Source of the DNA: Nitrosopumilaceae archaeon
GTDB lineage: Archaea > Thermoproteota > Nitrososphaeria > Nitrososphaerales > Nitrosopumilaceae
NCBI GenBank assembly: GCA_965203465.1
Contig: CBDBCR010000001.1
Span: 672,001-736,000, forward strand
Reading direction: 5' to 3'
Length of the DNA stretch: 64,000 bases
Positions 4,960-51,038 of this stretch are shown here, in pieces. The position numbers and the translations under genes are program-made. Below the pieces are notes generated by a model. It was given only the letters and a program-made list of their open reading frames with translations, had not been told where the DNA came from and searched no databases. Within the stretch, counting starts at the first letter, position 1. Each line of letters opens with the position of its first letter.

Positions 4960-4961
4960 GG

Positions 4962-20500: not shown

Positions 20501-20700
20501 CAGTCGCGACCGCGCGGTGCGTCAGGAAAATCGTGTCTGTGCTGAAAACCGGCGACGGGGTACATAGTATGCTAACGACCATCGACGAGACGCTCCAGGC
20601 AATACTTGAGGCAAAAGACGCAGATGCGGAAAGGATCGTCACGCAGGTGGCCAACGAACTGGGCGCCTACGGTTTTGAGCAGTTTAGAAAGTTTTCCTAA
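17509..20700 (+). CDS. Large alpha-helical (ARM/HEAT-like) protein with possible N-terminal HEPN-like domain; no NTPase motif
   Basis: 1063-aa ORF. N-terminal SVRETL...LHRWFVKVSHHG; YFF...WLDAL...WPESKYLARIA resembles the post-effector region of SIR2/STAND defence proteins. Start uncertain. Confidence 0.6.
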   Translation: MAAIRRAGGSVPESRAEIHVQSDVFASGDEKLLFERLYEQSQDLGYMFYSALFVLRRNAPGQSSNPSDPPGGVNPDRMAQSAHSVRETLVHAEDKLKLDLFAYSAYGKATPTSADKTEKKFLNNPTHVEKIQSISDPGRYLPKHLSRLYKDINKLHRWFVKVSHHGPPPSEQEYRKKLGAFTRHMNRLLEPYFQVTRQIDAALKDQGADLEKMEALLCKNWQAYHYFFKNASARWLDALIRSGTYFVHVPGSVSDTGEYMPIVWPESKYLARIAKERPELVTDTILKVRVTERKNPTVLADFAQAASEMPAKFGKKIANKALEEQWHRNAGQRLPWIVAEQIGALAAKLAPKEFDTALKLCENLLHLNDGDGYARGYLNDYDYRCVLETTVTVLAERDANKTLDMLCNMLSRAVRTINAGLGSGHMPSSSWHWDVGCDERNMHMGAISLLIVAIRKVLEMSERQIDDLAGSLEVLDSYKDPVFLRIKMHFYAKHPARFVKEMLPLASSQFDVKECESEYRRMLQFGYLYFDGDTRKDLRAKILAGPRPYTGDPAGHERRKDSWTLEKLHPLRNVEEFNPEYTSLKIKLGGPMDFGEHTPAYATPKPTLDPCMSPEEVIQYLESHKDEFDDNYHEFRRSVSRNPSEYCKLASRMRDMPVLFLRGFFDELSDADAALDWEPVLDLCGLMMDDADTSLISDSLLDDCGNMLRKNLTPDKIPFSLRGKVWNVLDRATRIVLSRYGSHREYSKPGNAFNSCINSGTGQTTLAIVQYAAWCHRGLARGGEPGRLVDEAKSALESLLDRHKSNSVHAAMGINFARLADLDEEWASSQTNSIFDHGHSSGAAAWEAYVQSCVRQTSFELLYAEYLYRFDAVSDPGTLKMMSDHVAVAHLHGLEKTDALIDSIMKKDSPGLLSYLVECMGKSASKLSVKDLKADMGAFASREEVSKTPSAGWLFLNRHADDGARLALLDRVLIATGGKIEPAHLVVEDLQSTSRSHPVATARCVRKIVSVLKTGDGVHSMLTTIDETLQAILEAKDADAERIVTQVANELGAYGFEQFRKFS

Positions 20701-21809: not shown

Positions 21810-24800
21810 ATGCCGAACTGGGCGTTGGAGCCGTTCAGCGTTACTGAAGACGACTTGGGCCGGCTAGATCCGAAAGACGCGGTAGATCTGATTAGAGACG
21901 TGATACACTTGGAGGCGTCCGGATCCGGCATCAAAGCTAGCACGATAGACGTATCTGCCAACATATACGCCAAAGACGGCGGTATAGACGGCGTGGTCAA
22001 AAACGCCCCGAACGACGGAATTTGTGGCATCATCAAAAAAGGGACCACGATGTACCAGGTAAAGTCGGGCAAATTCAGCCCGACAAAAACTAAAATACGG
22101 GAAATTTTGTTCAACGGATCCGAACTAAAAGCTGGAATACGGGACTGCTTTGAGATCGGCGCAACGTTGGTGGTGGCCTTTACCGGGTGGGATGCGCCCG
22201 CTGTGCCGCCCACGCGCGTAGAGCAAGACTTTCTTGCGCAGATAGAAAAAGAAGGATGCCCGAATGCGCGTATTGAAGTATGGCGCCAAAACACAATCAT
22301 CGGCCTTTTGAAAAAATTCCCGTCACTGCAACTGTCAGTCAAGGGCCTGTCTGGCAGCCCGTTGCACATACACGAAAAGTGGCGCGGCATGGCCGACATG
22401 AGGACGCAGGTTCATCTGGGCGAAAAGCAACACGGGTTCATACGCTCCATGAGGGCCGCGCTGCGCGGCCCCGACCGATCCCCGATACGAGTCTCGGGGG
22501 AGCCGGGCATCGGCAAGACCCGCCTGGTGCTCGAAGCCACCAAAGCGGACGACCTGCGCCCGGCCGTCGTATATTTTGAGAAACCGTCGGATCTGGAAGA
22601 GCGGGGCTTTATGAGCTACGTTTGCGGGGCCGACCGGCCGATCGAGGCGATCCTGGTCGTGGACGAATGCGAATTCTCCGATCACGCATCTATCTGGAAC
22701 AAACTGAAGCACAACGCGCCGGGCATCAGGCTGGTCACCATCTTCATCGAAGAGGGCCGATCCGCCCAAACCATGCCCGCCCCGCCGCTGGAGGACGAGG
22801 AACTCGAAAAAATCATCAAGGCGTACATAGGAGACGACCCCAACATACGGCGCTGGACAGAATGGTGCCGTCCGTCGCCTCGAGCCGCGCACATCATAGG
22901 CCACAATCTCAAAAACAACCCCGACGATCTGCTCCGCCCGCCGGACGAAGTGGACGTCTGGCGCAGATACGTCGCCGGCAAAGAGAGGTCAAAGGAAAAG
23001 ATCGACAAGCAGTACCAGATACTGCTCTGGCTCAGCCTGTTCAGGAAGTTCGGGTTCGAGAGCCCGCACGACGGCGAGGCGGACAGGATAGCTGAGATCG
23101 TGGGGCGCGAGGAGGGCATACCCAAGGGCGAGTTCGTGGGCACAGTCAGAGATCTGCGAAAGAGCAAGATACTGCAGGGCAGCACCACGCTGTACATCGC
23201 GCCAAAACTGCTCCATCTGTACTTGTGGCGCGAGTGGTGGAATACGTACAGCACAGACATGTTTCAAAAAGAGCAGGATCTTGTTCCGAGTGCATGCAGA
23301 GACTACGTAGACGGCAACTTGTCCACATGGTGCATGGACATGTTCGCATACGCTGGAACGAGTCCCGAGGCCGCCAAAATAGTGCGCAAATTCCTGTCCC
23401 CGGGCGGGTACATAGAATCGTACGCGACGATGGACTCTTTGTTGGGCGCAAGCCTTTTTTCGATCTGCGGCAGGGCCGATCCCGCCGGTGCGCTTGACTA
23501 CTTGAAAAGGACGCTCTGCAAAAGATCCAGGGGCGAACTTTCTAAATTCCGCGCGGGGCGGCGCGCCGCGGTGTCCTTCCTCGAGAGGATGGCCTCCAGG
23601 GGGGAGCGCGTGGACGACGTCGCGCACGTGCTGCTAAAGCTCGCGGAAGCGGAAAACGAAGCGTTCGCCAACAACGCGACGGGCGTGTTCCGGGGCATGT
23701 TCAAGCTGATCCGCCCGATGGCCAAGCCCGACTACATGATACGGCTGCTCAAGGGCGCCATGGAGTCGGATTCGGCCAGCGCTCGGAAAGTGGCGGTGGG
23801 CGCCTGCAGCGACGCGCTGGACGATGCCGGCTATGCCGTCCCGTACGAGGCCGACGGCATAGGGCCCGCGCCGCAGCCGTACGAGCCGACCCGGGACGAA
23901 AAGATCAGGTACCGGCTGCAGGTGCTGGGCATGCTAAGGGGCCGCGGCGGCGCCATGCCCGAAGGGGCCGCAGAGGCGGTGCTCTTACACGCCCACTCCC
24001 TGATCCTGGTGCCGGAGCTTGCAGACAGCGTTGCCGGAGCTTTGGAGGGGGTGCGGGCAGACGGAAAGAACGACGAAGAACTGGTCGAGTGCGTGTCCAG
24101 AATACTGTCGATCTGCGAGCTCGGCGAAAAAACGGCAGAGCGCCTGCAGGCGATCGCGGACGGCATATCCGGCGCCAGCTTCCATTCCAAGATGCGCAGG
24201 TACGTGGGCATGTCCGAGCACGTAGACACGGTCAGCGATTCCGCGCGCGAGAGCAGGAAAAAAGAGTTCGGCGTGCTAGCAGAGGCCGCCGCCGACCCGG
24301 ATGTCCTAAAGACCGAGCTGGACTGGCTCGTCACCGGCGAGGCCGCCCAGGGGTACCAGTTCGGCTACGAGCTGGCGGGCAGGGATCCGAAATGGCGGCT
24401 GCTGCCTGGGATCATGGGAGCCTTGAAAGGCGCGGGAGCCAAGGCCCAAAGCTCCTTCGCGGGCGGGTACCTGAGGCGCGTCCGGGAAAAAGACGCCGCC
24501 CGGTGGGGCGCCGAGCTGGACGCGGTATACGACGACGGAAAGACGTGCCGGCTGCTGCCCAGCCTGGTCCGGCTGTCGGGGGTCACGGACGAATCCGTCA
24601 GGAAAGTCATGCGCGGCGTAAGGAGCGGCAAGTTCGGGTGCAGCGCCATGGACTGCGTGGTCAATTCGGGCGGCGTTTCCGCCGAGACGTTTACAGAATG
24701 CGTAGAACTGCTCGCCGATAGCGAGGACGGCGACGCCGCGTTCGTGGCGCTGTCCATGATCCGTGCCCGCCTCGGCAGGAAGGACCTGCCAAAAGAGACC

Positions 24801-25487
24801 GTCCTGAAGATACTGCTCCACCGCAGCGTCTTGGACCGCACGGCGGAATCGGCCGGCATAGGCAGGGGCGAATGGGAGTGGAAGGACGTGGGGCTGGATT
24901 TCCTGAAACAGCACCCCGGCGACGGCGTCGGGGTGCTGGAGGCGGTGGTGGACCGCATGGACGCTCACATCCCCCTTATGCCGGAAATGGGCAAGGGGCC
25001 TGTCATGGCAGAGATCGTCAAAACGCACGGCGCAAAAGCGTGGCCCGCGCTGGCCAGGCACGTGGGCCCGCCGACGGACCGCAAGGCGCGCATGCTGCAG
25101 CTGTGGCTCGCAGGGCCCCTGTTCGACAGGGGCGACAGCGTCATGTCGTCCATCCCAATCTCGGCGATCAACGCCTGGGTCGGGGAGGACTGCGCGGCCA
25201 GGGCCGCCCACATAGCCTCTTTTCTTCCAGACAACTTTGTGTACATCTCGGAGTTTCTGTCGAAATACGGGGACAGGCAGGACGTGCAGGAAGCCTTGCG
25301 CAGAAACTTCGGCAGGGAAGGCTGGAGGGGATCGGGGGCGGCGCACTACCGGGAGAAGAAAAGGAAGGTGGACGGCCTGATGGCAGGCGAGTCGGATCCC
25401 AACATACTGTCGTGGCTCCGGTCTTACTCCGATCATTTGGACGAGACGGTAAAGCGCCACTCGGATTCCGAAGAGCGCGAATTGTGA
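21810..25487 (+). CDS. Avs-like STAND NTPase with N-terminal PD-(D/E)xK-type nuclease and C-terminal helical repeats
   Basis: DGGIDG...YQVKSG nuclease motif; Walker A GEPGIGKT; Walker B ILVVDEC; long helical C-terminus. Confidence 0.82.
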   Translation: MPNWALEPFSVTEDDLGRLDPKDAVDLIRDVIHLEASGSGIKASTIDVSANIYAKDGGIDGVVKNAPNDGICGIIKKGTTMYQVKSGKFSPTKTKIREILFNGSELKAGIRDCFEIGATLVVAFTGWDAPAVPPTRVEQDFLAQIEKEGCPNARIEVWRQNTIIGLLKKFPSLQLSVKGLSGSPLHIHEKWRGMADMRTQVHLGEKQHGFIRSMRAALRGPDRSPIRVSGEPGIGKTRLVLEATKADDLRPAVVYFEKPSDLEERGFMSYVCGADRPIEAILVVDECEFSDHASIWNKLKHNAPGIRLVTIFIEEGRSAQTMPAPPLEDEELEKIIKAYIGDDPNIRRWTEWCRPSPRAAHIIGHNLKNNPDDLLRPPDEVDVWRRYVAGKERSKEKIDKQYQILLWLSLFRKFGFESPHDGEADRIAEIVGREEGIPKGEFVGTVRDLRKSKILQGSTTLYIAPKLLHLYLWREWWNTYSTDMFQKEQDLVPSACRDYVDGNLSTWCMDMFAYAGTSPEAAKIVRKFLSPGGYIESYATMDSLLGASLFSICGRADPAGALDYLKRTLCKRSRGELSKFRAGRRAAVSFLERMASRGERVDDVAHVLLKLAEAENEAFANNATGVFRGMFKLIRPMAKPDYMIRLLKGAMESDSASARKVAVGACSDALDDAGYAVPYEADGIGPAPQPYEPTRDEKIRYRLQVLGMLRGRGGAMPEGAAEAVLLHAHSLILVPELADSVAGALEGVRADGKNDEELVECVSRILSICELGEKTAERLQAIADGISGASFHSKMRRYVGMSEHVDTVSDSARESRKKEFGVLAEAAADPDVLKTELDWLVTGEAAQGYQFGYELAGRDPKWRLLPGIMGALKGAGAKAQSSFAGGYLRRVREKDAARWGAELDAVYDDGKTCRLLPSLVRLSGVTDESVRKVMRGVRSGKFGCSAMDCVVNSGGVSAETFTECVELLADSEDGDAAFVALSMIRARLGRKDLPKETVLKILLHRSVLDRTAESAGIGRGEWEWKDVGLDFLKQHPGDGVGVLEAVVDRMDAHIPLMPEMGKGPVMAEIVKTHGAKAWPALARHVGPPTDRKARMLQLWLAGPLFDRGDSVMSSIPISAINAWVGEDCAARAAHIASFLPDNFVYISEFLSKYGDRQDVQEALRRNFGREGWRGSGAAHYREKKRKVDGLMAGESDPNILSWLRSYSDHLDETVKRHSDSEEREL

Positions 25488-30026: not shown

Positions 30027-31871
30027 GTGCAGGGTTCGAGAGGCGCTCCGGACGGGGACGCGCTGATATCTGTTTTTGACAGGATTGAAGAGTCGATGGA
30101 AGAACACAGGCGCAAGTTCGTCCGGCAGAACGCCGGGCCGTACGATCTGTGCAGGCGCATGATCGGTTTTCAGCACGTCATGCACGACACGGCCTGGTCC
30201 AGGCACAAGGACGAATCCAAAGGCTACGTGGAGGGCGCGCCGGTAGCGGACGAGATCCGGGCAGAACTGGCCATCCTGGACACGCTCGGCCAGAACAAGC
30301 TGTCCCTGCTGTCCGCCCTGCATGCGCTAGCCGGGGGCTCCGTGCACGCCGCCGGGAGCCTGGTGCGCCCGGTATTCGAGTCGGTGCCCGAGTCTTTCTA
30401 CCTCATGGCGTGCCCTCAGACCGCCAAAATGTTCATGCTGCTCGAGGCGTACCGGATATGGAATGCGTCCAGTCCCTCCGCAAAGCTCCCCGGGCCGATC
30501 AAGTCTTTCATGGAATCTCCAGAGACGCAAGAGTTCCTCGGCGGAGACCGGGTTGCGGCCGGAGAGTTTAAAAAATTCCGCGACACCCACAAAATCGGGG
30601 ACATACGCGAGCGCGTCTACGACGGCGAGACGCTGGACCGCCAGAAACAGACGTATGCCGTGCTGAGTTTCAGCTCCCATGCAGGCGTGCTCCGGGGTTT
30701 TACGTCCTTCGAACCGGGGGTGTCCAAGCGCTTTATGGAAATAACCGCCGAGCTGTCTTTTGCCAACCTGTTTCTGACGGCCAACTCCCAGAGCAGGCTG
30801 CTGGAAAGCCGGGGGCTGTCAGAGTCTGCCGAGCTGATGCGCGGTGCCCTGCCGGACATGGCCCCGCAGTACAGGTTCGCCGACATGTACCCGAGCGACG
30901 ACCTGTACACGGGCGGCCTCCGTCACGCTCGGGTCCCTGTCGTGATTGCGCAGGGGGGGTCGGGTGGCCGCGCCCCCGACGGGCGATGTTTCCGCGCGCC
31001 TGCTGGAGGCCGCGCGGGCGGGCAGAGGCGCCGTGCCGCAACCGGGCCGCGATCGTCTCCACGATGCGAGCTCGGATCCGGCAAGAAACGCGGGATCCGA
31101 TTTTGTTTTCACAGTCAACCGAAAAGTCCCTCCGGCGGGCGGACGGTTTCCGATCGCAGACATGCCAAAACGGGCAGAACGGCGGCGTCCAAAAGGCGGG
31201 CTCGCCCGGTCCCGTTCCGGGCGCGGCCTCGGCCGGTCGCCCGCGCCGCCGCCCGGATCGGGCAGCCGCTACCGGCGCATTTCCAGCGTCTTTGTCATTT
31301 TGGAGTGGAATTCCGGCACGTTCTGAGACCATATCCGGATCCGCTCCTCTTCGTCGTAGTCGTAGCGGTAAAAATCGTTGACGGTCCATTCCAAAAACTC
31401 CCCGAACGCGTTCATTTTTTTGTCCCTTTTGTGCAAAACCCCGGTCCTGGCCTCGCGCAGCTTTTCCGCGACGCGCTGTATCTTTTGCCGGTTGTCGCCA
31501 AAGTAAGATCTCAGCGACAAGTCCACCTCGTAGCGCTCTTCCGAGCCGTCGCTCAGATTGACGTCGTTCAGTATGGCCTTGAGATCCTGGCAGATGTCGC
31601 GCGTCTCGTCCAGAACGTCCCCGTTGTTGACACCGGATCTCCAACGATCGTAGAATATCTTGCCCACGGCGACGCCCAAGGCGGCGACGCCCAAGGTTGG
31701 CCCCAAGGCGGCCCACAAGGCGGCCAGCAACGCTTCATCCATGCGCGACGTTCCCTCCTCGCCTTAAAATTTCTATCTCTCGCAGGCGCGCCCCCCGCAA
31801 GACCTGCCCGCGCGCCGCCCCCGGACCGCTTTGGCCCGATCCGGGCCCGCGGGCGGCCGCTACGTCCATGA
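30027..31871 (+). CDS. HEPN-like (DUF5677-like) protein; only the first ~305 codons look genuine
   Basis: TTATA box at ~29999; AAGSLVRPVFES and YAVLSFSSHAG motifs. After ~30945 the frame reads through GC-rich intergenic DNA and antisense to the next gene, so the stop may have been lost. Confidence 0.55.
   Translation: MQGSRGAPDGDALISVFDRIEESMEEHRRKFVRQNAGPYDLCRRMIGFQHVMHDTAWSRHKDESKGYVEGAPVADEIRAELAILDTLGQNKLSLLSALHALAGGSVHAAGSLVRPVFESVPESFYLMACPQTAKMFMLLEAYRIWNASSPSAKLPGPIKSFMESPETQEFLGGDRVAAGEFKKFRDTHKIGDIRERVYDGETLDRQKQTYAVLSFSSHAGVLRGFTSFEPGVSKRFMEITAELSFANLFLTANSQSRLLESRGLSESAELMRGALPDMAPQYRFADMYPSDDLYTGGLRHARVPVVIAQGGSGGRAPDGRCFRAPAGGRAGGQRRRAATGPRSSPRCELGSGKKRGIRFCFHSQPKSPSGGRTVSDRRHAKTGRTAASKRRARPVPFRARPRPVARAAARIGQPLPAHFQRLCHFGVEFRHVLRPYPDPLLFVVVVAVKIVDGPFQKLPERVHFFVPFVQNPGPGLAQLFRDALYLLPVVAKVRSQRQVHLVALFRAVAQIDVVQYGLEILADVARLVQNVPVVDTGSPTIVEYLAHGDAQGGDAQGWPQGGPQGGQQRFIHARRSLLALKFLSLAGAPPARPARAPPPDRFGPIRARGRPLRP
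31248..31860. repeat. Duplicated segment A1 (partner 55488-56089)
   Basis: Direct repeat of gene plus promoter; high but not perfect identity. Confidence 0.92.
31269..31742 (-). CDS. Small N-terminally membrane-anchored helical protein (paralog 1)
   Basis: Hydrophobic N-terminus; TTTTAA box ~23 nt upstream; conserved paralog at 55510-55971. Confidence 0.75.
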   Translation of the reverse strand: MDEALLAALWAALGPTLGVAALGVAVGKIFYDRWRSGVNNGDVLDETRDICQDLKAILNDVNLSDGSEERYEVDLSLRSYFGDNRQKIQRVAEKLREARTGVLHKRDKKMNAFGEFLEWTVNDFYRYDYDEEERIRIWSQNVPEFHSKMTKTLEMRR

Positions 31872-33097: not shown

Positions 33098-34492
33098 CTA
33101 GCGCGCCACGGGCGCCTGCTCGAATTCCACCTCTCCCTGGACGATTCCGTATACCTTGCCGCTGATGCCGATCTCGGTCTTTCTGAGGCCCTCCACCAGA
33201 TTCTTCCTGGCGGTCCAGATGGCCCCGTGCTGTTTTTCCTCCCTCGTCTGGAGCGCTTCCAGCTCTTCCCTGGATGCCTGCAGTGAGGCGACGGTGTCTT
33301 GGAACTCCCTGCCCGTCACGTATTCGTACAGCCTGGCTTCCTTTGTGCTCCTGTCCAGCTGAGATTCGGACGCCTTGTGGATGGCTATGATGCCCCTGCG
33401 CAGGGTCGCTGCCACCTCCGTCACGATGGACGGGTGGACTAGCATCACGCCGTCGGCCGAGCCGAGCAGGCGGTTGGGGGACGATTTGGGGAGGGAAGAC
33501 GAGACGATCAGCGAGTATTCGGTGTCGTGCGTGTCCCTGTACTTTTTCGCCTTGGCGATGTCGCGCCGGGTGATCGCGGCCGACGCCTTGTTGTCGTACA
33601 CGATCGGGGTGCCCGGCCGGATGCCTCCTTCCCGTATCTGCTGTATCAGGTCGGAGCTCGACTCGCCGCGCTTTTGCGATCGGAACGTGTCGTCCGGGAA
33701 CGCCCGCCGTAGCGACTGGAGGAGGTTCTCCTCGCCGGCCTCGCCTGCAAGCTCGGGCTGGCGCTGTTCGAGTTGCCTGGACAGCTCTGTTATCTTGTCT
33801 TTGGCCCGCCGGATCTGTACGTCCTTTTCCCGTATCTGCTGGTTTTTGGAATCGAGTTCCACGCCGAGGGACTCGCGCGCGGACGCTTCGGCCGCCGCCC
33901 TGGAATCTGCGACCTGCTTTTTCAGTCCGCGCAGCTCCTTGTCCCGCTCCCGGATCTCGTCAGAGTGCCTCTTGGCGGCGTATTTTGCGTCCTGATCCAG
34001 GCGCTTTTTCAGGCCCGCGATCTCGCGCTCGTGCCGCTTTCTGGTCTTCCGCTCCGCGGATGACAGCGACGCCCTTTTCTCGCGCTCGAGTCTGCCGATC
34101 CGCAGTTTGAGCGACTTTGCTTCGGCCCCCGCGTCCCGCAGCGCCCTCGCCTCGGACTGCTTGTGCCGCTTTTGCTCCTCTCTGATCTCTTTTTTGTGCT
34201 CTGCCGTCAGCCTCTTCTGCCGCTCGGAAAGCATCTCGCTCATCTCCTTGCGGACGGATTCGACTTGATCCTCGTGCGCCGATTTGCGGCTTTCCGCCTC
34301 GCGCTCGTGCTGCGCGCGCATCTCGGACAACTCGCGCTCGTGCTTGGCGAGCGCGGCTTTGAGCTGGGCGTCCGCCCGCGTCCCGGCCTCCGCCGCCAGC
34401 CGGCTTCGCGCCCTCTCGTAGTCGCCGCGCGCCAGCGGGTTGTCGCACAGGGGACACTTCATCTTGGCTGCCTCGTCGGCTCCGATGGCCAC
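33098..34492 (-). CDS. DUF2130-like coiled-coil + nuclease-fold protein
   Basis: N-terminal CPLC, long coiled coil, GEAGEENLLQSLRRAFPDD...SDLIQQI...IVYDNK; TTTTATA box at ~34514-34520. Confidence 0.82.
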   Translation of the reverse strand: MAIGADEAAKMKCPLCDNPLARGDYERARSRLAAEAGTRADAQLKAALAKHERELSEMRAQHEREAESRKSAHEDQVESVRKEMSEMLSERQKRLTAEHKKEIREEQKRHKQSEARALRDAGAEAKSLKLRIGRLEREKRASLSSAERKTRKRHEREIAGLKKRLDQDAKYAAKRHSDEIRERDKELRGLKKQVADSRAAAEASARESLGVELDSKNQQIREKDVQIRRAKDKITELSRQLEQRQPELAGEAGEENLLQSLRRAFPDDTFRSQKRGESSSDLIQQIREGGIRPGTPIVYDNKASAAITRRDIAKAKKYRDTHDTEYSLIVSSSLPKSSPNRLLGSADGVMLVHPSIVTEVAATLRRGIIAIHKASESQLDRSTKEARLYEYVTGREFQDTVASLQASREELEALQTREEKQHGAIWTARKNLVEGLRKTEIGISGKVYGIVQGEVEFEQAPVAR

Positions 34493-35060
34493 GGAGCCCC
34501 GCTCCGGCGGGCGTATAAAAATATGGCTTCCTGTTCAGTCAACTCTGGGTTGGTATCCGCTAGCCCCCTCCGCCCCGCACCCGAGGAACTGCCCACAGCG
34601 CGCCAAGCGCGGCAGGGCAGGCGCTGCCGTGCCCCTCCGGCGGACCCCTTTTGTGCCACCTGCCGTCCGGCCACGCCGACCTGTCCGTCGTCCCACGCGC
34701 CGCGTTTTTTTGCGGCACTCGCGCCCTGCATCGAACGCCGATTTACGGGGCGCCGAAAGCTCCCGTACGGGCCGGCCCGGCCGCCACGCTCGCGATCTTG
34801 GCGTCTGCCGCCTAGCGCCCCTCCGTCCCGGAGTCGCGTCGGGACGCTTGTGCCACGGGCGCAGCGCGGCCCCGATCTTGGCCCTCCTCCGAGCCTGCCA
34901 GGCACCGGAACCAGGGAGGGCAGCTTTCGGCGCCTGCCAAGCCGAGCCTGGGCGCGTACCGCAAGCCCGCATAGCGCGCCAAGCTCGTACGTGCGCCCGG
35001 ATCCGCGGCGCTCTTGCGGCGGCGAGCCCGGCGTCTAGCGCAGGATCGATGCTAGGCAGC

Positions 35061-36011
35061 CTAGCGCTTACGCCGGTGCAGGTCGACGATGCACGCGAAG
35101 GGGCTGTCCGTCTGCAGGTCTTCGTACGCGCACTTGTGCTGGGAAAAGTCCGTCACGGCCAGGGCTCCGGGCTCGTGCCTTATGATCTTGGGGCCCTCGG
35201 CCCTTAGCAGGACGCGGCTCGGCTGCGACGTGACGTAAAGGACACAGTCCGGGCACGCGGGCGAAACTACCATCTTGGGCGTAAGCGGGCTTTGCCCGGA
35301 CAGGCCGGGGAAGGGAAATTCGCCTCCGCAGGTCCGGCAGGCTTCTTCAAAGCGCGGGTCGGCCCCCGTCTCGGTGTCCCGGCCTATCAGCGCCGCGGTG
35401 TTTGGCGAGCACGCGGCGTGTGTCGGGGGCAGTTTCAGGCACTTTGTGAATCGGCAGACAAATCTAAAGATCTCGTCCAGCATCCTAGAGTTGGAGCTCT
35501 CGCCGTCCGGGCAGCAGATCCGCTGCGCGTCGCCGTCCGGCGGCTCGGTTCTGGTGAACTTTAGATCGCCGCTAGCGTCCTTGTGGTAGTGGTACGGTAT
35601 GCGTTCTAGCGCGGCCGCGGCGCTCTGTTCCCGTCTGCGCAGGGCGCGCAGTACGTCTGTAGGGGTCTCGGCGTAGGGCGCGTTTTTGGCAAAGCCGATC
35701 GGCACCTTGTACGAGTTCGGGGCGTTTCGGAGGTCGAACCACAGCGTGCCGTATTTGTTGTTTGACTCGTACCGGCCGAGGCGCGGAACCGTCTGGGCCT
35801 CCGGGACGCTGGTGCAGATTTCTTCACTATGCGTCGTCCCGTTTAGATTCAAGGGGCAGAACATGCTATCCAGCGGCGACAGTTTTTGCTGGAGTTTCTG
35901 CACGCCGTCGTACGCCTGGGCGAGTTTCACAAGTGCTGGGCTGTCGCACCCTTGCCGTTCTCGTGGCACGGACGTGTGCTCTCCTGCAATGCACCCGCTT
36001 ATCGTCGGCAT
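35061..36011 (-). CDS. Putative orphan HK97-fold major-capsid-like protein
   Basis: ~316 aa from ATG 36011 (start uncertain). The motifs QTVPRL...YGTLWFDL, LDEIF...PPTHAACSPNT and GGEFPFPGL...VVSP.CPD..YV...LLRAEGPK...DFSQ resemble archaeal head-tail virus capsid proteins. Confidence 0.55.
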   Translation of the reverse strand: MPTISGCIAGEHTSVPRERQGCDSPALVKLAQAYDGVQKLQQKLSPLDSMFCPLNLNGTTHSEEICTSVPEAQTVPRLGRYESNNKYGTLWFDLRNAPNSYKVPIGFAKNAPYAETPTDVLRALRRREQSAAAALERIPYHYHKDASGDLKFTRTEPPDGDAQRICCPDGESSNSRMLDEIFRFVCRFTKCLKLPPTHAACSPNTAALIGRDTETGADPRFEEACRTCGGEFPFPGLSGQSPLTPKMVVSPACPDCVLYVTSQPSRVLLRAEGPKIIRHEPGALAVTDFSQHKCAYEDLQTDSPFACIVDLHRRKR

Positions 36012-36515
36012 GTACGTTACCGCAGTGTCCTCAGGCACCGCTAGATCCCTCCAAGACGGTGGCGCCCCTTGCCCGCAACTTGCCGGGTGCAGGGCCGAGC
36101 TTCCGTTTTCGGTCCCGCACGGGCGCCGATCGCCTGCCCAGCTGCGGGGTGCGTATTGAGCATGTTGCCCCCGCCGCCGTCTTGGATATATACCGTACTG
36201 TGCCGTACATGATGGGTCGGCTGGCGCGCCCGGCCGCCCGGACCGGGCCGCATTCGGCGCCGCCTGCGCGCGGGCCCGGCTCTGCTGAATGAAGCAACGG
36301 CGGCCCGAACCGCCACGCTGCGGACAGGCCCGACCGCGGGCGGAAAACGGCCCCTGCCCGAGGTGCGCCCTTGGACGTATGCGGATCAGGCGGCACCCTA
36401 ATGCCATCTATAGCAGGCGGGCCCCCGCGGCGATCGCTTGTCGGGCCCGATCGGGCTGCTTGTGTTAACGATGTTACTCATCTACAGTTTTATAGGCCAA
36501 TACGAATACAAGTGC

Positions 36516-37139
36516 ATGGCAACAATAGAAATTCCACAGCAATCCACGATTCAAAGCGACGTGGGTAAAAAAATACAATTCCGATGTGTAGATTGTGACG
36601 AGATAACAGATGGGACAATTGTTGCATCTTACATAGGCACTGCCAAAGATTCCGGTCCTGAACCCAAGTTCTTTCTCTATCCAAACGTGAGGTTGGTTCG
36701 ATGCAACGTATGCAAGATGAAACGGGCGCTACGGTGGAGCCGCCCCGAAAGCGACGATACGTATTGGGAAAAACCGGACGAGGACGACTATGTCGGTTTG
36801 GCATACAGGGAAGCCCGCTTATGCATATCGCACGATTTACACGCTGCAACAGTCATGGTTTGTAGGAGGCTCATCATGGCGCTTGCCGTAGACTTGGGGG
36901 CGGTGGAAGGGCTCAGCTACAAAAAATACATAGAGTATATTTTAGATACCGATCTTGCTACGTCTATTATCAGTGTTTTGGATCACATACGCGTCCACGG
37001 CAATCACACGAATCACTACCTTGAACCACCGTCTGAAGAAATCGCAGAGGACATATTCATGCTTACTACTGCCTTCCTGCACACAATACGCGAAGAAGCG
37101 ATGAATCGTGATGCCGATCTGTTTTGTTTTGGCGGATAA
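36516..37139 (+). CDS. Zn-ribbon + DUF4145 (HEPN-like) protein
   Basis: CVDC...CNVC; AYREARLC...ATVMVCRRLI...LDHIRVHGNHTNH; TTTTATA at 36488; low GC. Confidence 0.85.
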   Translation: MATIEIPQQSTIQSDVGKKIQFRCVDCDEITDGTIVASYIGTAKDSGPEPKFFLYPNVRLVRCNVCKMKRALRWSRPESDDTYWEKPDEDDYVGLAYREARLCISHDLHAATVMVCRRLIMALAVDLGAVEGLSYKKYIEYILDTDLATSIISVLDHIRVHGNHTNHYLEPPSEEIAEDIFMLTTAFLHTIREEAMNRDADLFCFGG

Positions 37140-37277
37140 ACTGTCAACATGCCCGCGTAAAACCTGGGGCCGAATTTCGGGCGGCTCGTCCGGCGGCGCT
37201 TCGATCCGCTCCTTTTCCGCCGATCAGAAGTTTTGCCCGGAAAGCGCCCGAGGCCGCCGCAACCGAGCGCGCGGCCC

Positions 37278-39077
37278 GCCTATTTTGCGGGCGCGCCGCC
37301 TGCGCCCGGATCGGGCTCGAATTCTTTGGGCAGCCGGCCGATTATGCGCTCGGACTCTAGCCCTGCGTGCACCGCCCGTTCGATGACGGCCACGATGTCG
37401 GCGCCCGCGCACGGGTCGTTGCGGATGCCGCTGTCCCTGTCGATCCTGGCCCTGTACCTGGCCACTACCCATTCGAGCGGCGTGCGGCCGTCGACGCGGT
37501 ACGTGGTCCGGGGGACGTTCTCGAACAGGACGGCGCCGTCTGCGCGCACCACGGATGCGTCCCGCCGGTAGCCGCCTTTGGTCCTGCGCCTGCCGAACGA
37601 GAGCTTTGCGAAACCGCGCGGCGGCGACTTTGGCGTTCCGAGATCGTGCCTCTTGCAGGCCTCGAAGTTCAGGTGCAGGCGCGCCAGCCTTTGGCCCGCG
37701 TCTCTGAACGCCTCAAAGTCGGGCGCCATCGGGATGCGGGGCAGCTCGCGCGACAGGCTGCCGGCGAACTTTTCCCTGTAGCCTGCGTGGTGCAGCATGC
37801 CGTAGACGTAATGGAACACGTCCTTTTTGGACAGTCGGCGGCCGTAAAAGCCCCGGTACTCGGACAGGATTCCGTCCGTCACGTTCTCTTTCCTGGATCC
37901 GCTCTCGTAGGCGTAGAGGGGGAAGCACAGGCCGTTGGAGACGAGCTGCATGTCCGGCGCGGCGCCCGTCGCGAGCGCCGAAAAGTCCCCGCCAATCCTG
38001 GAAACGCATATCGCGACGTTTTCCGAGCCGCCCCGCGGGAAGAACGACGGGATCTTCGACATGGCCGAAATAAAGACCCGGTCAAAGTAGGCGTACTGCC
38101 TGAAGAACGGCCGGTACTGCGCCGTCCTTATCTTCCCCCGATCGAGGCACTGCTTTCCCAGCCTCCTTGACGCGGCCGACAGGTCCTCCGACCACTTGCC
38201 CCGGCTCGGATCTGTCCCGGGCTCGCCGGGATCCTGTCCGTTGTAGTATTCTATGTGGCGCTCCATGTTTCTGGCGAGCTCTTTTCTGGAAGAGTTGTAC
38301 ACCCACGCGTCGCGGCGGGTCGCCATTCCGGGCGAATGCGCCTCGAAGATTCCGTCGCGCCGCCTTCCGGACTTTGCGTCGCTCCCCATGGGCGCGTATT
38401 TTCCGAATTCTTGGCCGCGCTGGTCCAGCCAGTCGTGGCGCGCGTCCGGCTTAATTATCCGCCAGCCTCCGATCCCGCCGACGGATCCTGCTTTCCCGAC
38501 AGCGCCCAGTTTTGTTTTGGCAGGCAGCGAGTCCCCGATGTCCTTGTAGCGTATGGCGCGCTCTTGCCTTTGCGGGTTCTTTACGAGCAGAACGACCGCG
38601 ACGGGGACGCGCGATCCGCTGCCGAACACGTTGCCGCCCTCCTTCTTTGAGGCCTCCCCGCGGGTTCTTCGGTTGCCCCGCAGATCGAGGCACCAGATCT
38701 CGTCGAATTCTTCTGCCAGGCAGGCCCTGATGCCCGAGCCCGTCTCGGACCTGATAAAGCTGGAGTTTGTGACGAACGCGACGATCCCGCGCTTTCCCAC
38801 GCGGTCGCTGGCCCATCTGAGGGCCCTTGCGTAAGAGTCGTACAGCCATCTTGAGCCGCGCGTCTTGGTCTTTGCCCCGTACGTGCCCCTGATCCTTTCG
38901 TCGATTTTCGGATATTCGGCGCCCGGGTTTCCGCCGCCACGGGCGCCCCGGCCGCCGTACGGCGGGTTTCCTACCGCGACGCAGATGCCGGATCGCGCCG
39001 CGCCTAATCGGTTGCCCATCTGGAGTTACTGCGCGCTCGCCTATTTTAGGCATGGCGGACAGATCCCGGCCGGTCGC
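37278..39077. repeat. Duplicated segment B1 (partner 60698-62498, offset 23421)
   Basis: Near-identical colinear 1.8-kb direct repeat running from promoter to stop codon. Confidence 0.95.
37280..39019 (-). CDS. N-terminally truncated Type ISP restriction-modification protein (MTase motif IV + C-terminal specificity domain), copy 1
   Basis: GNPPY, LYDSY.RALRWASDR, LDLRGN, RDAWVYN, YRPFFRQ, FHYVYGMLH...LPRIP (LlaGI/LlaBIII-like). Lacks nuclease, helicase and SAM-binding motif I. Confidence 0.85.
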   Translation of the reverse strand: MGNRLGAARSGICVAVGNPPYGGRGARGGGNPGAEYPKIDERIRGTYGAKTKTRGSRWLYDSYARALRWASDRVGKRGIVAFVTNSSFIRSETGSGIRACLAEEFDEIWCLDLRGNRRTRGEASKKEGGNVFGSGSRVPVAVVLLVKNPQRQERAIRYKDIGDSLPAKTKLGAVGKAGSVGGIGGWRIIKPDARHDWLDQRGQEFGKYAPMGSDAKSGRRRDGIFEAHSPGMATRRDAWVYNSSRKELARNMERHIEYYNGQDPGEPGTDPSRGKWSEDLSAASRRLGKQCLDRGKIRTAQYRPFFRQYAYFDRVFISAMSKIPSFFPRGGSENVAICVSRIGGDFSALATGAAPDMQLVSNGLCFPLYAYESGSRKENVTDGILSEYRGFYGRRLSKKDVFHYVYGMLHHAGYREKFAGSLSRELPRIPMAPDFEAFRDAGQRLARLHLNFEACKRHDLGTPKSPPRGFAKLSFGRRRTKGGYRRDASVVRADGAVLFENVPRTTYRVDGRTPLEWVVARYRARIDRDSGIRNDPCAGADIVAVIERAVHAGLESERIIGRLPKEFEPDPGAGGAPAK

Positions 39078-39249
39078 CCGGCGCCGGCAGCCCGGGGTTG
39101 GACACGCCCCGCCGCGGGTCGCGCGGCACCTCCGCCCTGCACGAAAGACGCGATTCGCGCGGCACGCCGCGGCAAAGGCCGACAGAGAACATATCGCGCC
39201 CCGCCGATCGCGAGGCAAGATTTTTAATCGGTCCTTCGAAAAGGCGGGC

Positions 39250-43814: not shown

Positions 43815-44957
43815 GTGGGAAGGGAAGAACGGCAGAAGATCATCAAGAAAATCCAAGACCTGCGCCGATCCAAGGTTTTGGTGTATTTCGTGGGCGACAG
43901 GCCACTTTTGGGAGCGCAGATCTCCACCGATTCCATAAGATGGATGTACGATCACCTAAAGAGCATGAACGACAACAAAAAGGTGGAAACCATAGATTTT
44001 TACCTCTATTCGTTGGGAGGCGCACTGAACACCCCGTGGCCCGTCGTCAACATGCTGAGGGAATATTGCGACACGCTGAACGTGCTGGTGCCGTACAAGG
44101 CGTACAGCGCCGCCACGCTGACAGCGCTCGGAGCGGACAAGATAAGCATGGGCGGGAAGGGCGAGTTGGGCCCGATAGATCCGCAGATGACGCGGACTAG
44201 TCCCGGCCCCCTGCCAACAAACGAGACAATCAGCACGGAAGACGTGTCGTCATACGTGTCGTTCGTCAAGAACAGGGTGGGCGTCACTGATCAGAGCGCT
44301 CTGGCGGATCTGACCAAGGCGTTGGTGGACAAGACGGGCGCTTTGGGGCTGGGCGAGATAAACCGGGTGCATTCGCACGTGCGGGACGTGGCAAAAAAGC
44401 TGCTGTCGCAGGTCAAGCCCGCGCTGGACACGGCCGAAATCACAAAGATCATAGAGTCCCTCACCGAGAGAACGCACATGCACGGCCACTCGATTGGCAG
44501 GCAAGAGGCGCGGCAGATGGGCCTGCGCATAGACGACATGGATCGCGAACTGGAGCGGTTGTGCTGGAGCCTGTACCTGGAATACGAACAGCACCTCAAA
44601 CTCCATTCGTATACCGATCCCACCGACTTTCTTGACAGCGGCAAGGACGAGTATGTCGAAGACGGCGCGGTTATCGCATGCATAGAGTCGGAGAACCTTC
44701 ATCACGAATATTCCGGGACGCTGGTTTGCAGAAGAATAAGGCAGCCAGGCCCGCAACTAAACTTGACCGTCAGCATCCCGATCCAGCTGCCGGACGGCGA
44801 CCAGGATTCGGCGCAAAGCGGCAAGGCCGCGCTGGAGCAGATCCAGCAAGACGCGATCGACAAGATCGCCCGGCAGATAGCCCGGCAGGTCGAAGCTCAG
44901 ATGCCAACGATCGGGATAGAGCAGAGCCTGACCAAAAGGATGTGGCGGAAGATATAA
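43815..44957 (+). CDS. SDH-family ClpP/crotonase-fold serine protease
   Basis: LYSLGG...VLVPYKAYSAATLTALGADKISMG..GELGPIDPQ, HMHGHSIGR; TTTATTTA box at ~43785. Confidence 0.9.
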   Translation: MGREERQKIIKKIQDLRRSKVLVYFVGDRPLLGAQISTDSIRWMYDHLKSMNDNKKVETIDFYLYSLGGALNTPWPVVNMLREYCDTLNVLVPYKAYSAATLTALGADKISMGGKGELGPIDPQMTRTSPGPLPTNETISTEDVSSYVSFVKNRVGVTDQSALADLTKALVDKTGALGLGEINRVHSHVRDVAKKLLSQVKPALDTAEITKIIESLTERTHMHGHSIGRQEARQMGLRIDDMDRELERLCWSLYLEYEQHLKLHSYTDPTDFLDSGKDEYVEDGAVIACIESENLHHEYSGTLVCRRIRQPGPQLNLTVSIPIQLPDGDQDSAQSGKAALEQIQQDAIDKIARQIARQVEAQMPTIGIEQSLTKRMWRKI

Positions 44958-46482: not shown

Positions 46483-49400
46483 CTAGTCGCGCTTTTCCAT
46501 CGCGGACAAAAGCCCCAGGGCGTCGGGCCAGCCGGCCATGGCGTACGTGTCCAGCACGTCCAGGCACCTCTGCGCTTGCCTTTCGGGCAGCGGCTGGTGC
46601 AGCAGGCCCGAGAGCACCTTTAGCGTCTCTTCTGCCAGGACTGGCTGTACTGGAGCGTACCCCTCCATGCCGGCTATTTTTTCCAGGTACTCTAGGGACT
46701 TGCCGGGCATACGTTCCCATTTTTTCGCCAAAAACTTGGCCAGCTCCTCCAAAAGCCGTGGATCACACGGACTGCGCTCCGTCTCCGAGGCGATGCGGTC
46801 CAAGTGCCGCTCGATTTTCGGCAGCAGCCCGCCGTCCGCGCTGTCTTCTGCCCAGCCCAGAAGGAAAAAGCACGCCTTTTCGCGGACTTGGTGGTCCGGA
46901 TCGTCCAGCAGGCGGTAGAATATGTCCAGAGCCTCGTCCCGGAACTCGTCTACGTAGCGTTTCAGGTAGAACGGCAGGTGCATGCAGATCTCGCTCTCCG
47001 CACCGTCGATTGCAGCGTCCAGCAGGCTCGCGGCGCGCGGCTCGCTTTTGGCCAGCGCCAGATAAAGCATGTAGGCGCCGACGTGCTCTGACTTGTTGCC
47101 CGCCCCCACCATGTTTTCCAGCATGCGCAGCGCGTGGGAGGCGTCCTTTCCGGCCGCGATTCGGAGCATGTCCTGCACGAAAAACTGCACGCGCCGGTCT
47201 CTGTCCCGGCTGTATTCCAGTCCGATCTCGTAGGCCAGGCCGTAGTCGTAGTTGGCAAGACGCGGGAGGCTCTTGCACACGTCGGCGCGCACCATGCTCG
47301 ACGGATCTTTTGACAGCTCCCGCACCAGCGGCACCAGCGAGGCGTCCTTGTACATGTCCGTCATAATGATGGCGCACTCGGCTACCAGTCCGCGGACGGT
47401 GAAAGAATACGCCAGAGAGCCGTCCTGTTCGTCTTCGGATTCTGCGGGGTCTGGATCGCCCTTGCAGTCTGACAGCAGCCTGCGCATGCCCGAAACCTCC
47501 ACTTCGTCCAGCTCGACTCCACCCTCTAGGCATTTCAGCAGTGCCATCAGAACATCCCTTCTGTCCAAGCCTTTGTCTCCGCCGCAATGCCGCTCCAGGA
47601 TCTTTCTGGGATCCGGCTCTGCGTCCTTGCGTACTTGGACCTTTGGCCCGGAAGACGGCACGCCTAGCTTGGGCGAATGCCTGTCCAGCACGTCGCGGTG
47701 GACCGGCCCGAGCAGATCCTGCGGGAACGCAGACAGGAACGCCGCCTTGCGCATGAGGGCCGCCGCGCCGCTGCCGCTTTTGCCGGGCTGGCGCGCGTCC
47801 ATGATCGTGTCCAGCAGGCTGGCGGCCTGTTCCTTTTCCAGCATGGCCGCGACGCCGCCGATCGCCGCGAGGACGCTGCCGCCCATGCCGCCCACCAGGT
47901 AGGCCTGCGGGTCGGACAGCTCGGCAAAGATCTCTTGCAGGAACCTTTCCTTCCTGGCCACCATGGCGTCCAAAAGCAGGGCGCGGAAAGTGGCCAGCCT
48001 CGTCTTGCGGATGATCGGGGCCAGCCTGCGCAGCTCTTCTTCGGCGCACCCGCCAACGTATTCCTTGACATCCTTTATGATTTTGTGCCTTGGATCCGCA
48101 ATGTCTGCATAGTACGTGCCGCTGTCTTCTATTATGTCTCCCTCTTGTCTCTTCCGCAGGGGGTGGAGGATCCTCTCGAACAGCTGTATGGCCGCGCGCA
48201 CCATCAGTTCGGGATTCTTTTTCAGCAACCCCGGGAACATCTCGCCCAGCTGCCAGACGACCATCATGTTGTCCTGCCGCAAGTTGCTCGTAAGGTTGAA
48301 CGTGCCGTACGACGCGGCGGTGGTTTTTTCCTTTGACTTTTCCTCGTACGTGAACAGGTCGCAGAATATGTCCGGGACTGCCCGGGGGCACGCATCCATC
48401 AGTTTCGGAAGAGATTCTGCCAGCCCAGCCCGCGCGTGCACGTGCTCGTTGGTGGCCATCTTGGACATCCATCCTTCATGCCCGTCCGTCTCGAGTTCGG
48501 CGGCCAGTTTTACGGCATTTCGCTGATCAAAGACATTGCCTGCGCGCTCTACGATCTTCCGAACTGCGCGGAATATGTCCGCGTGCCTTGCCTCGTGCTT
48601 GATCGAGCGCAGGTAGCTCGTTATCAAGTCCGGCTTCAACGCAGGATCTGAAATCCACTTTTCAAAGTACGCGTCTTTCCACAACTCGAACCAAATGGGA
48701 TTGGCTCGCTTGGCCAACTCTATGAAAAAGTGTCCCCGTAGGACTTTCTCTCTTGTGAGCAGATCGGCTATCGCGGAAAAGTCCTGTCCGCCCAGTTCGG
48801 TTATCTGCGACATGGCGGTAAGCGCGGAGATCTTCCAAAAGTACTTTAGGTCGGATTTCAGTATCCGCTCGACCGTGCAGGCAAACAGCGCGGGCTTGTC
48901 CCTGTGCAGCCAAGACAGTGCGAAAACGACCGTCGGGCGCAGAAACGTATTGTATCCGTCGTTCGAGATGAATTCTACCAAATCTTGGCGCTCGATGATG
49001 AACTTCGATATCACGTAGTCTAGATACGCGTGGTGGAAGAACCCGAGCGAATCTTTGTTTCTGACCAGCACGCCTTCCCCGCAGACCCCGTCCATCAGGC
49101 CTTGATCCCCAAAGTCGTCGTACGGGATGGCCGTCTGCTGCCGCTTGGCCATTTCCAGCGATACGCCATACAGCAGCTCTTTGGCCCTTGCGGGCGACTC
49201 CGTCTTTTCCACGTATTCGTGCCAGTGCTTGTAGTACAGATCGGTTTCGTGCCGCATGTCGCCAAAGTCGGCGTCCGGTGATTTTTCGAGTATGAGCGAC
49301 AGGAGTTTCAGGCGGAACGGGTTGTAGAACATGCCTTTCAGCCTGTCGGGGACGCCGGGGTTGCCCAGATGCTCGAGCATCTGCTCGAGTTCGGAATCGG

Positions 49401-50715: not shown

Positions 50716-51038
50716 GACACGCGACTTATCTCCTTTGCTTAAATACCTGCCGTCTATCCCCGGCCAATCTGTTCTCGACCGAATGGCGGTCCATTTCTGA
50801 CGCAGACGTGTCCGAGTCAGCACGGCTGTAAAGGCGGGCGGAGTCCGGTTCGGCGTTGCGTTGTACGGGCGTCAGAGCGGTCATCCGTCGGTGTGGACGC
50901 CATGCCGGAGGCGTCGGAACGGCGCCCCTGCCGTTCCGAGCAGTTTTGCGGTGGCCGCCGTCTTGGTGACATGGGCAGGCATTAACTCCGGGCGCGCCGG
51001 CATCGGAAGTTTTTATACGCGCGCAACCCGGGCGCAGA

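What the first reader, a model, noticed from the sequence alone, without database searches (positions are those of the whole stretch)
35061..36011. Orphan viral major-capsid-like gene inside a defence island, with no portal, terminase or tail genes
Seen: an intact ~316-codon frame whose motif order resembles archaeal head-tail virus HK97 MCPs: E-loop (QTVPRL...YGTLWFDL), spine helix, A-domain (LDEIF...PPTHAACSPNT) and G.FP.PGL...VVSP..PD..YV...LLRAEGPK. Its neighbours are DUF2130 and DUF4145. Known: satellite capsid homologs (PICI Ccm) and retroviral Gag-derived Fv1 interfere with virus capsids. Inference: a domesticated dominant-negative capsid decoy or a novel nanocompartment. Together with the fusion at 6747-7390, this suggests capsid mimicry as a theme of this island.
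Basis: inference. Interest (0 to 1): 0.8.

Follow-up and report, generated by a model that had tools for sequence, protein, structure and literature searches.

The report
Orphan virus-capsid gene family in an archaeon
An archaeal chromosome keeps an intact gene for a virus-shell (HK97-fold capsid) protein, one of four copies, although the genome shows none of the other genes needed to build a virus, so the host or a hidden mobile element may have taken it over.

Summary

- **Family:** no Pfam, PHROG, NCBIfam, PADLOC or PDB-sequence match. It belongs to a tiny family of 25 representatives among 1.84 billion proteins.
- **Fold:** AlphaFold2 on 35 relatives gives pLDDT 91.6. Foldseek and VIA-align return only HK97-fold capsid proteins and encapsulins (Z up to 14.9).
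- **Viral relatives:** longer relatives (375-422 aa) lie on ~50-kb contigs. In four related archaeal genomes the homolog sits in a shared head-gene module, once 6 kb downstream of a terminase.
- **Chromosomal clade:** the short forms make one well-supported clade holding all four paralogs of this genome.
- **Orphan status:** the genome (97% complete) shows no terminase, portal, prohead protease or other partner of that module.
- **Setting:** all four copies lie among restriction, HNH, OLD, GmrSD and transposase genes.
- **Selection:** paralog omega is 0.3-0.7, and about 1 in the N-terminal third of one strain pair.

The function is untested. A virus-derived capsid protein kept for interference with capsid assembly is my leading reading (~0.35). 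Rivals are a satellite capsid, a nanocompartment or a slowly decaying remnant.

The parts
35061..36038 (-).
   Evidence: ORF and translation. Start inferred from relatives' N-termini and P0002. Coding GC3 pattern. AF2 pLDDT 91.6. HK97-fold matches only.
36039..36407 (-). Upstream part of the longest ORF; not coding-like, probably 5' untranslated or promoter region shared with the divergent DUF4145 gene
   Evidence: GC by codon position 0.71/0.71/0.68. Strain variants carry single-base insertions and deletions here (36065, 36073, 36102, 36105, 36284, 36286, 36327). None is listed inside 35076-36038 (4 further indels were not shown).
36186..36192 (-). TATATAT, a possible archaeal TATA box 148 nt upstream of the GTG (inference only)
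   Evidence: Read from the sequence. No transcript data.
33098..34492 (-). Downstream neighbour: coiled-coil + DUF2130 protein, with its own TATA-like box (TTTTTATA, 34514-34521) 22-29 nt before its GTG, so probably a separate transcription unit
   Evidence: Pfam PF09903 E 1.8e-18. Sequence read.
36438..37139 (+). Divergent upstream neighbour: DUF4145 protein resembling the single-gene defence system PD-T7-4
   Evidence: Pfam PF13643 E 1.8e-6. PADLOC PDLC04109 E 3.5e-8.

Best explanation
SHOWN: the gene encodes a full-length HK97-fold major capsid protein of a previously unmodelled family. Its viral members are the capsid proteins of head-tailed viruses and proviruses of the same archaeal family. 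The window's copy belongs to a distinct, shorter, chromosomal clade with four diverged paralogs in this 2.26-Mb genome. The genome shows no detectable terminase, portal, prohead protease or other partner of the viral head module. INFERRED: the capsid gene was captured from such a virus once, duplicated, and kept as a standalone gene in variable, defence-rich islands. MOST LIKELY MECHANISM (inferred, untested): the protein still makes capsomer-type contacts. When a related virus infects, it co-assembles with or caps the incoming capsid protein and spoils head assembly. That is a capsid-derived interference factor locked in an arms race.
For: Fold: AF2 pLDDT 91.6, pTM 0.89. Foldseek PDB gives 214 matches at E<=1e-3, and every listed row is a phage capsid or encapsulin entry. 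BFVD gives 180 matches, nearly all named ones capsid proteins, two named prohead protease. VIA-align gives Z 14.9 for T4 gp24, 13-14 for encapsulins and 12.7 for HK97 prohead, with 422 of 994 chains at Z>=8. Language-model neighbours of two family members are viral capsid clusters.

Viral kin: in G734 the homolog lies 6 kb downstream, on the same strand, of a Terminase_6N match over the cut-off. G734, G698, G448 and G367 share a syntenic module around it. Long forms lie on contigs of 49-57 kb.

One chromosomal clade: 19 rows, support 100/99, holding all four own paralogs, each with a closer ortholog in another assembly. Contigs reach 1.08 Mb.

Orphan status: no Terminase_6N, Terminase_6C, TerL_ATPase, Phage_portal, SPP1_portal, Phage_capsid, Linocin_M18 or Peptidase_S78 in the own genome. 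Profiles of six partner genes of the viral module give no hit at E<=0.01.

Constraint: all copies are intact. Omega between paralogs is 0.29-0.69. The C-terminal 63 residues are 80% identical within the window's subclade against 60-66% elsewhere. The indels listed in strain variants lie outside the coding body.

Conflict-type signs: the paralogs lie next to HNH, MmeI/Eco57I-type, OLD-type and IS genes, and in the window next to GmrSD, Schlafen/AlbA_2, DUF4238 and PD-T7-4-like genes. Distribution is patchy: 0 of 4 same-genus genomes and 6 of 401 family genomes. Divergence is fast: 33 differences in codons 4-92 against run X5, spread 11/12/10 over codon positions, with 23 of 30 changed codons altering the residue. 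The capsid-like pair has dS 0.83 and dN 0.47, against dS 0.29 and dN 0.08 for the adjacent HNH pair.
Against: There is no functional, expression or assembly evidence of any kind. No neighbour is conserved across all four paralogs. Defence islands also collect junk DNA, so location proves little. A ratio of about 1 in the N-terminal third fits relaxed constraint as well as an arms race, and it rests on one contig pair and 33 of the listed differences. The NG86 omegas are rough because dS is 0.8-2.1, near saturation. The cognate virus of this host is unknown. Absence of terminase and portal rests on Pfam and home-made profiles, which can miss divergent archaeal versions. Large unannotated neighbours (710, 750, 1726 and 1884 aa) were not modelled.
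Confidence: 0.35

Rival explanations
1. Capsid gene of an unrecognised satellite or other mobile element. Each paralog belongs to a small integrated element that builds or resizes capsids with the help of a virus supplying terminase, portal and tail, as capsid-forming PICIs and Ccm-type proteins do in bacteria (recalled knowledge).
For: The distribution is patchy and island-bound, with IS110, IS66 and DDE transposases nearby. The PDB matches include a capsid-forming PICI (9gyi) and the capsid hijacked by the Vibrio satellite (8g1r). Two paralogs share a diverged capsid-like + HNH segment. Conjugation-type genes lie at the window start.
Against: No Phage_integrase match over the cut-off exists anywhere in the genome, and none lies near a paralog. 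No gene is shared by all four loci. The HNH family has about 8 genomic copies, and only 2 are adjacent to a paralog. No element borders were found.
Confidence: 0.2
2. Slowly decaying remnants of four old proviruses, still open by chance or recency and without present function.
For: The islands hold gene fragments: truncated Type ISP and MmeI pieces, and a 62-residue capsid-like fragment at C3:667652-667825. Change in codons 4-92 is near-neutral against X5. The family is absent from 4 of 4 same-genus genomes.
Against: At 65% GC a 325-codon frame stays open by chance about 2 times in 10,000 (my estimate from base composition). Yet four paralogs at 34-45% identity are all intact, and so are 14 of the 15 relatives in the clade. 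Each paralog has an ortholog in another assembly. Omega is below 1. Co-variation in the family was strong enough for a pLDDT 91.6 model. No other remnant of the head module is left anywhere in the genome, which is odd for plain decay.
Confidence: 0.2
3. A new encapsulin-like nanocompartment shell that encloses a cargo enzyme.
For: It is a standalone HK97-fold gene without packaging genes, and encapsulins are among the very best structural matches: 9fy6 at E 4.9e-7 and Z 13-14 for several. Its length of 325 aa lies within the range of its matches, which run from about 265-280 aa (encapsulins) to about 300-420 aa (phage capsid proteins).
Against: It has no match to Linocin_M18 or any other Pfam model. 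No known cargo type lies adjacent, and no partner is conserved among the four loci. Four fast-diverging paralogs in variable islands, and absence from same-genus genomes, are unlike a housekeeping compartment. The nearest sequence relatives are viral capsid proteins inside head modules.
Confidence: 0.15

Closest known systems
HK97-fold major capsid proteins of head-tailed viruses (Caudoviricetes), including archaeal ones such as Haloferax tailed virus 1
   Same: Same fold over nearly the whole length (model residues 1-324 aligned; Z 11-15). Sequence-detectable relatives sit in terminase-linked head modules of related archaeal genomes.
   Different: It matches no existing capsid sequence model (Pfam, PHROGs, NCBIfam). 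The window's clade is shorter by roughly 50-100 residues after the conserved N-terminal hairpin. It also stands alone in a genome without detectable packaging genes.
Encapsulins (family 1, e.g. Bacillus methanolicus 9fy6, Myxococcus xanthus EncA, Thermotoga maritima 3dkt)
   Same: A standalone HK97-fold gene in a cellular chromosome, with top-ranking structural similarity.
   Different: No sequence-family match, no cargo gene, multiple fast-evolving paralogs, a defence-island setting and a patchy distribution.
Satellite capsid proteins (capsid-forming PICIs, PDB 9gyi; Ccm-type size-redirecting capsid homologs, the latter recalled)
   Same: A capsid-protein homolog encoded outside a complete virus that could act on a helper's capsid assembly. 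9gyi is among the matches.
   Different: No integrase, replication or packaging-redirection genes were found around the paralogs. The host is an archaeon.
Capsid-derived restriction factors of animals (Fv1, enJS56A1; recalled, not tested here)
   Same: The proposed logic is the same: a captured capsid gene, kept by the host, evolving fast, interfering with related viruses.
   Different: Unrelated fold and domain of life. For the present gene the interference is only inferred.

Membership tests
HK97-fold major capsid proteins (Duplodnaviria) | HK97 fold (N-arm, E-loop hairpin, spine helix with P-domain sheet, A-domain) | tested here: met
   AF2 pLDDT 91.6. 214 PDB and 180 BFVD Foldseek matches at E<=1e-3; every listed PDB row is a capsid or encapsulin entry, and nearly all named BFVD rows are capsid proteins. 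VIA Z up to 14.9 over residues 1-324.
HK97-fold major capsid proteins (Duplodnaviria) | Match to an existing capsid sequence family (e.g. PF05065, PF17236, PHROG capsid families) | tested here: not met
   0 families for the protein, and 0 Pfam / 1 stray PHROG match for 31 relatives. PDB sequence search with protein and profile gave 0.
HK97-fold major capsid proteins (Duplodnaviria) | Encoded in a head module with terminase and portal | tested here: not met
   Not met for the window and its genome. Met for the relative in G734, and a syntenic module is present in G698, G448 and G367.
HK97-fold major capsid proteins (Duplodnaviria) | Assembles into icosahedral capsids | not testable with these tools
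   Needs expression and electron microscopy.
Encapsulins | Match to an encapsulin sequence family (Linocin_M18 and others in Pfam) | tested here: not met
   No Pfam match at E<=0.1. No PF04454 match in the genome.
Encapsulins | Adjacent or fused cargo protein | tested here: inconclusive
   The neighbours are DUF2130 and DUF4145. The other paralogs have HNH, unknown 710/750/1726-aa proteins and IS genes as neighbours. No neighbour is shared by all four. No longer fused forms were found, which is weak evidence. Targeting peptides were not examined.
Satellite (PICI-like) capsid or capsid-redirecting genes | Lies in an integrated element with integrase and replication genes | tested here: not met
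   Only one sub-cut-off Phage_integrase match in the genome, far from all paralogs. None appeared among the Pfam-scanned neighbours.
Gene transfer agents | Capsid gene together with terminase, portal and tail genes | tested here: not met
   No terminase or portal models match the genome.

The most novel reading that the evidence does not exclude
Sponge-associated ammonia-oxidising archaea have turned the capsid protein of their own head-tailed viruses into a multi-copy, fast-evolving restriction factor that poisons capsid assembly. This would be a prokaryotic counterpart of Fv1-type capsid-derived immunity and a new class of archaeal defence gene.
Probability: 0.3. Interest if true: 0.85.

Novelty: new variant of a known kind. 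Interest (0 to 1): 0.62.

Why it matters
Standalone HK97-fold genes in cells are so far explained as encapsulins. The review PMC8987985, read in passages, names only that route. Here a different route is visible with its starting point still in view: viral capsid genes in head modules of related genomes, and a derived, shortened, duplicated chromosomal clade in a genome without packaging genes.

If the clade acts against viruses, it adds a defence principle (capsid mimicry) to archaea. If it builds shells, it is a new encapsulin family. Either way the work also defines a capsid family that current profile libraries miss. That should help annotate viruses of ammonia-oxidising archaea.

Four comparative-genomics papers on sponge Thaumarchaeota hold the word 'capsid' zero times by the search listing. 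The AOA virome preprint holds no 'sponge', 'remnant' or 'domesticat'.

Tried and rejected
- **First structure model.** AF2 on 13 close relatives gave pLDDT 44.2 and was unusable. It was replaced by the 35-row alignment.
- **Complex prediction.** Three copies gave 'no answer' (score 0.00). This is evidence neither way.
- **Pattern scans for related loci, all without confirmed relatives:**
  - Viral contigs with A1, P0022 and A3
  - Genome contigs with A1 and A3
  - Metagenome contigs with A3
- **tblastn of P0022 against 50,697 phage records:** no match.
- **Longer or fused forms:** none found, which is weak evidence.
- **Expression:** no RNA holder was listed among the sequencing runs, so expression is untested.
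- **Laid contigs:** they are short and low-depth. No single contig spans DUF2130 to DUF4145, and parts without cover say nothing.
- **PHROG scans of provirus neighbours:** only weak hints (portal 0.0043, PmgS-like 4e-4, terminase 0.0035). I rely instead on the Pfam terminase match and on synteny.
- **Rejected idea 1:** the 448-aa ORF is the gene. Its N-terminal extension is not coding-like.
- **Rejected idea 2:** the 879-aa protein at 6747-9386 shares this family.
- **Rejected idea 3:** the HNH gene is a fixed partner. Only 2 of about 8 HNH copies are adjacent to a paralog.

Full report
**1. The gene.** On the minus strand an open frame ends at 35061.
- Relatives begin nine residues earlier with M-P-E-D-T-A-V-T-Y-M-P. 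This fits the GTG at 36038 and the 325-aa database protein P0002.
- GC at codon positions 1/2/3 is 0.60/0.50/0.79 in the gene, like its neighbours. The further upstream part of the 448-codon ORF reads 0.71/0.71/0.68 and is not coding-like.
- The downstream DUF2130 gene has its own TATA-like box 22-29 nt before its start. The capsid-like gene has a TATATAT 148 nt upstream. The gene therefore looks monocistronic, but this is inference.

**2. No known sequence family, but a real family.**
- Pfam, PHROGs, NCBIfam, PADLOC and the PDB sequences gave nothing for the protein.
- They also gave nothing for 31 relatives or their profile.
- The word-indexed search found 13 proteins at 34-100% identity.
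- The exhaustive HMMER search found 25 representatives among 1.84 billion proteins, 17 of them at E<=1e-10.
- Only one carries a name: a hypothetical protein, CENSYa_0227 of Cenarchaeum symbiosum A (P0033).

**3. Fold.**
- AF2 with 13 close relatives failed (pLDDT 44). With 35 more diverse rows it gave pLDDT 91.6 and pTM 0.89.
- Foldseek against the PDB returned 214 matches at E<=1e-3. Every listed row is an entry of an HK97-fold particle: encapsulins, HK97, D3, T4-type, mycobacteriophage capsids, a capsid-forming PICI and the Pyrococcus virus-like particle.
- BFVD returned 180 matches, and nearly all named rows are major capsid proteins (two are named prohead protease).
- VIA-align gave Z 14.9 (T4 gp24, 250 residues, rmsd 4.2), 13-14 (encapsulins) and 12.7 (HK97 prohead I). 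422 of 994 chains reached Z>=8.
- Language-model neighbours of the protein and of a 76%-identical relative were viral capsid clusters. This is a lead only, and it agrees.

**4. Where the family lives.** It is rare in sampled genomes:

| Sample | Genomes with a match (window's genome included) |
|---|---|
| Relatives | 2 of 61 |
| Same genus (other genomes) | 0 of 4 |
| Phylum sample | 2 of 401 |
| Family sample | 6 of 401 |

- In G734 the homolog (426 aa) lies 6 kb downstream, on the same strand, of a Terminase_6N match over the cut-off.
- BLAST shows that G734, G698, G448 and G367 share a syntenic set around the homolog. The set comprises a terminase-like gene, a large portal-sized protein, a 211-452-aa protein, the capsid homolog, and two to three small downstream genes.
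- hhalign links the most distant of these (G367) to the family at 95.4% probability.
- Long forms (375-422 aa) come from contigs that cluster at 49-57 kb, as complete viral genomes would.
- Short forms (313-376 aa) include contigs of 232 kb, 593 kb and 1.08 Mb, plus the window's own 1.03- and 0.99-Mb contigs.

**5. A derived chromosomal clade.**
- The own genome (2.26 Mb, 96.9% complete) holds four full-length paralogs: the window's copy, C3:732796-733815, C1:351273-352289 and C1:~807735-808670. It also holds one 62-residue fragment.
- In a maximum-likelihood tree of 37 rows, all short forms make one clade (19 rows, support 100/99) nested among the long forms. Each own paralog has a closer ortholog in another assembly.
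- The duplications therefore predate the split of these organisms. P0033 sits on a long, unresolved branch.

**6. Orphan status.**
- These models have no match in the own genome, while the controls rang: Terminase_6N, Terminase_6C, TerL_ATPase, Phage_portal, SPP1_portal, Phage_capsid, Linocin_M18 and Peptidase_S78.
- Profiles built from six partner genes of the viral module found nothing at E<=0.01 in the six-frame ORFs. The viral capsid profile found two paralogs.
- No Phage_integrase match reaches the cut-off.

**7. Surroundings.**
- **Window:** DUF2130, DUF4145/PD-T7-4-like, a truncated Type ISP piece, Schlafen/AlbA_2, two GmrSD genes, DUF4238, ParB + PRTase-CE, a DNA methylase and a DDE transposase.
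- **Other paralogs:** HNH_4 genes convergent with two of them, IS110 and IS66 transposases, MmeI/Eco57I-type pieces, an OLD-type ATPase, and large proteins without family.
- Nothing is shared by all four loci.
- The HNH family has about eight copies in the genome.

**8. Selection.**
- Nei-Gojobori estimates between paralogs give omega 0.29-0.69 at dS 0.76-2.1, which is rough and near saturation.
- In the segment shared by two loci, the HNH pair has dS 0.29 and dN 0.08. The adjacent capsid-like pair has dS 0.83 and dN 0.47.
- Within the window's subclade, identity is 60-66% over the first 262 residues and 80% over the last 63.
- Contigs of four runs from three other studies, three of the runs labelled sponge or marine metagenome, carry pieces of the locus at 85-100% identity.
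  - The listed indels fall in the upstream spacer or at the stop codon.
  - In run X5 the 5' piece of the gene differs at 51 of 482 bases. The flanking pieces differ at 18/553, 9/418 and 7/514, although metagenome contigs may stem from different strains.
  - 33 listed differences in codons 4-92 spread 11/12/10 over the codon positions, and 23 of 30 changed codons alter the residue, so the ratio is about 1 there.
- Together this gives a maintained frame and fold, a conserved C-terminal core and a rapidly changing N-terminal third.

**9. Reading.**
- **Shown:** a virus-derived HK97-fold capsid gene family, duplicated and kept as orphans in variable, defence-rich islands.
- **Inferred:** exaptation.
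- The conflict-type signature is multi-copy, fast, patchy and island-bound, with viral relatives in the same host family. It favours a role in virus-host or element-host conflict over a housekeeping compartment.
- I rank the readings as follows: capsid-assembly interference 0.35, satellite-type capsid 0.2, functionless remnants 0.2, nanocompartment 0.15.
- The self-association job gave no answer.

**10. Literature.**
- PMC6563490 (abstract and passages) lists thaumarchaeal proviruses found through terminase searches. Its text does not mention CENSYa genes, and its supplements were closed.
- PMC8987985 (passages) names encapsulins as the known fate of standalone HK97-fold genes.
- The AOA virome preprint 10.1101/2025.08.23.671958 (passages) holds no 'sponge', 'remnant' or 'domesticat'.
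- Four sponge-Thaumarchaeota genomics papers hold 'capsid' zero times by the listing.
- I found no description of this family in searches. This does not prove that there is none.
- Comparisons with Fv1, enJS56A1 and Ccm are recalled knowledge.

Noticed in passing
window 31235-31860 / 55475-56089 and 37270-39085 / 60691-62506: Two pairs of direct repeats (91% and 98.5% identical) frame two stretches with different gene content. The first holds the 245-aa ORF, DUF2130, the capsid-like gene and DUF4145. The second holds three other ORFs. The 1.8-kb repeat is a truncated Type ISP methylase/specificity piece. It looks like one cassette site used twice.
   Followed up: partly
G000 C3:731235-733815 and C1:351204-353763 (loci L008, L009): A diverged two-gene segment, capsid-like gene convergent with an HNH_4 gene, occurs at two loci. 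The HNH part is 87% identical in DNA and the capsid-like part only 66%. The C3 HNH copy seems split over two frames. The HNH family has about 8 copies in the genome.
   Followed up: partly
all family members, N-terminus (window 36003-36029, minus strand): A conserved N-terminal motif A-V-T-Y-(M/F)-P followed by A-G-E-H is kept in both viral long forms and chromosomal short forms, and it forms a beta-hairpin in the model. In the C1:808k paralog there is no start codon between a far upstream TTG and the ATG inside the motif, so its true start is unclear.
   Followed up: no
window 637-4570: An actin-like ALP/MreB-type protein (276 aa) is followed by a 1033-aa protein with TrwB/TraG-type coupling-ATPase matches. 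A MazE-like gene lies at 4625-5164. This may be the edge of a conjugative or plasmid-derived integrated element.
   Followed up: no
window 9769-13579: A ParB_N protein, a PRTase-CE protein and an N6_N4 DNA methylase lie in a row with lower GC (0.51 at 10-12 kb). It looks like a separately acquired conflict-system cassette.
   Followed up: no
window 17509-20700, 21810-25487, 46483-50823: Three very large ORFs (1063, 1225 and 1446 aa) have a coding GC3 pattern. The first two have no Pfam match. The third was not scanned.
   Followed up: no
L021 (G734:C7) 5327-17799: A co-directional cluster of about 15 genes begins with a Terminase_6N-type gene and holds the 426-aa capsid homolog. It is probably a provirus or viral contig of a related archaeon. 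The 887-aa protein in portal position carries a stretch resembling thymidylate synthase PHROG 85, E 9.5e-10.
   Followed up: partly
protein P0029 (6712 aa, contig of 90,852 bases): A giant predicted protein matches the family in nine separate stretches. It may be a mis-joined gene call or a tandem array of capsid-like genes read through. Unexplained.
   Followed up: no
window 43815-44957: A ClpP-like SDH-type serine protease (PF01972, E 2.1e-12) lies 8 kb from the capsid-like gene. Proteases of this superfamily serve as prohead proteases in some viruses (recalled). No link was tested.
   Followed up: no
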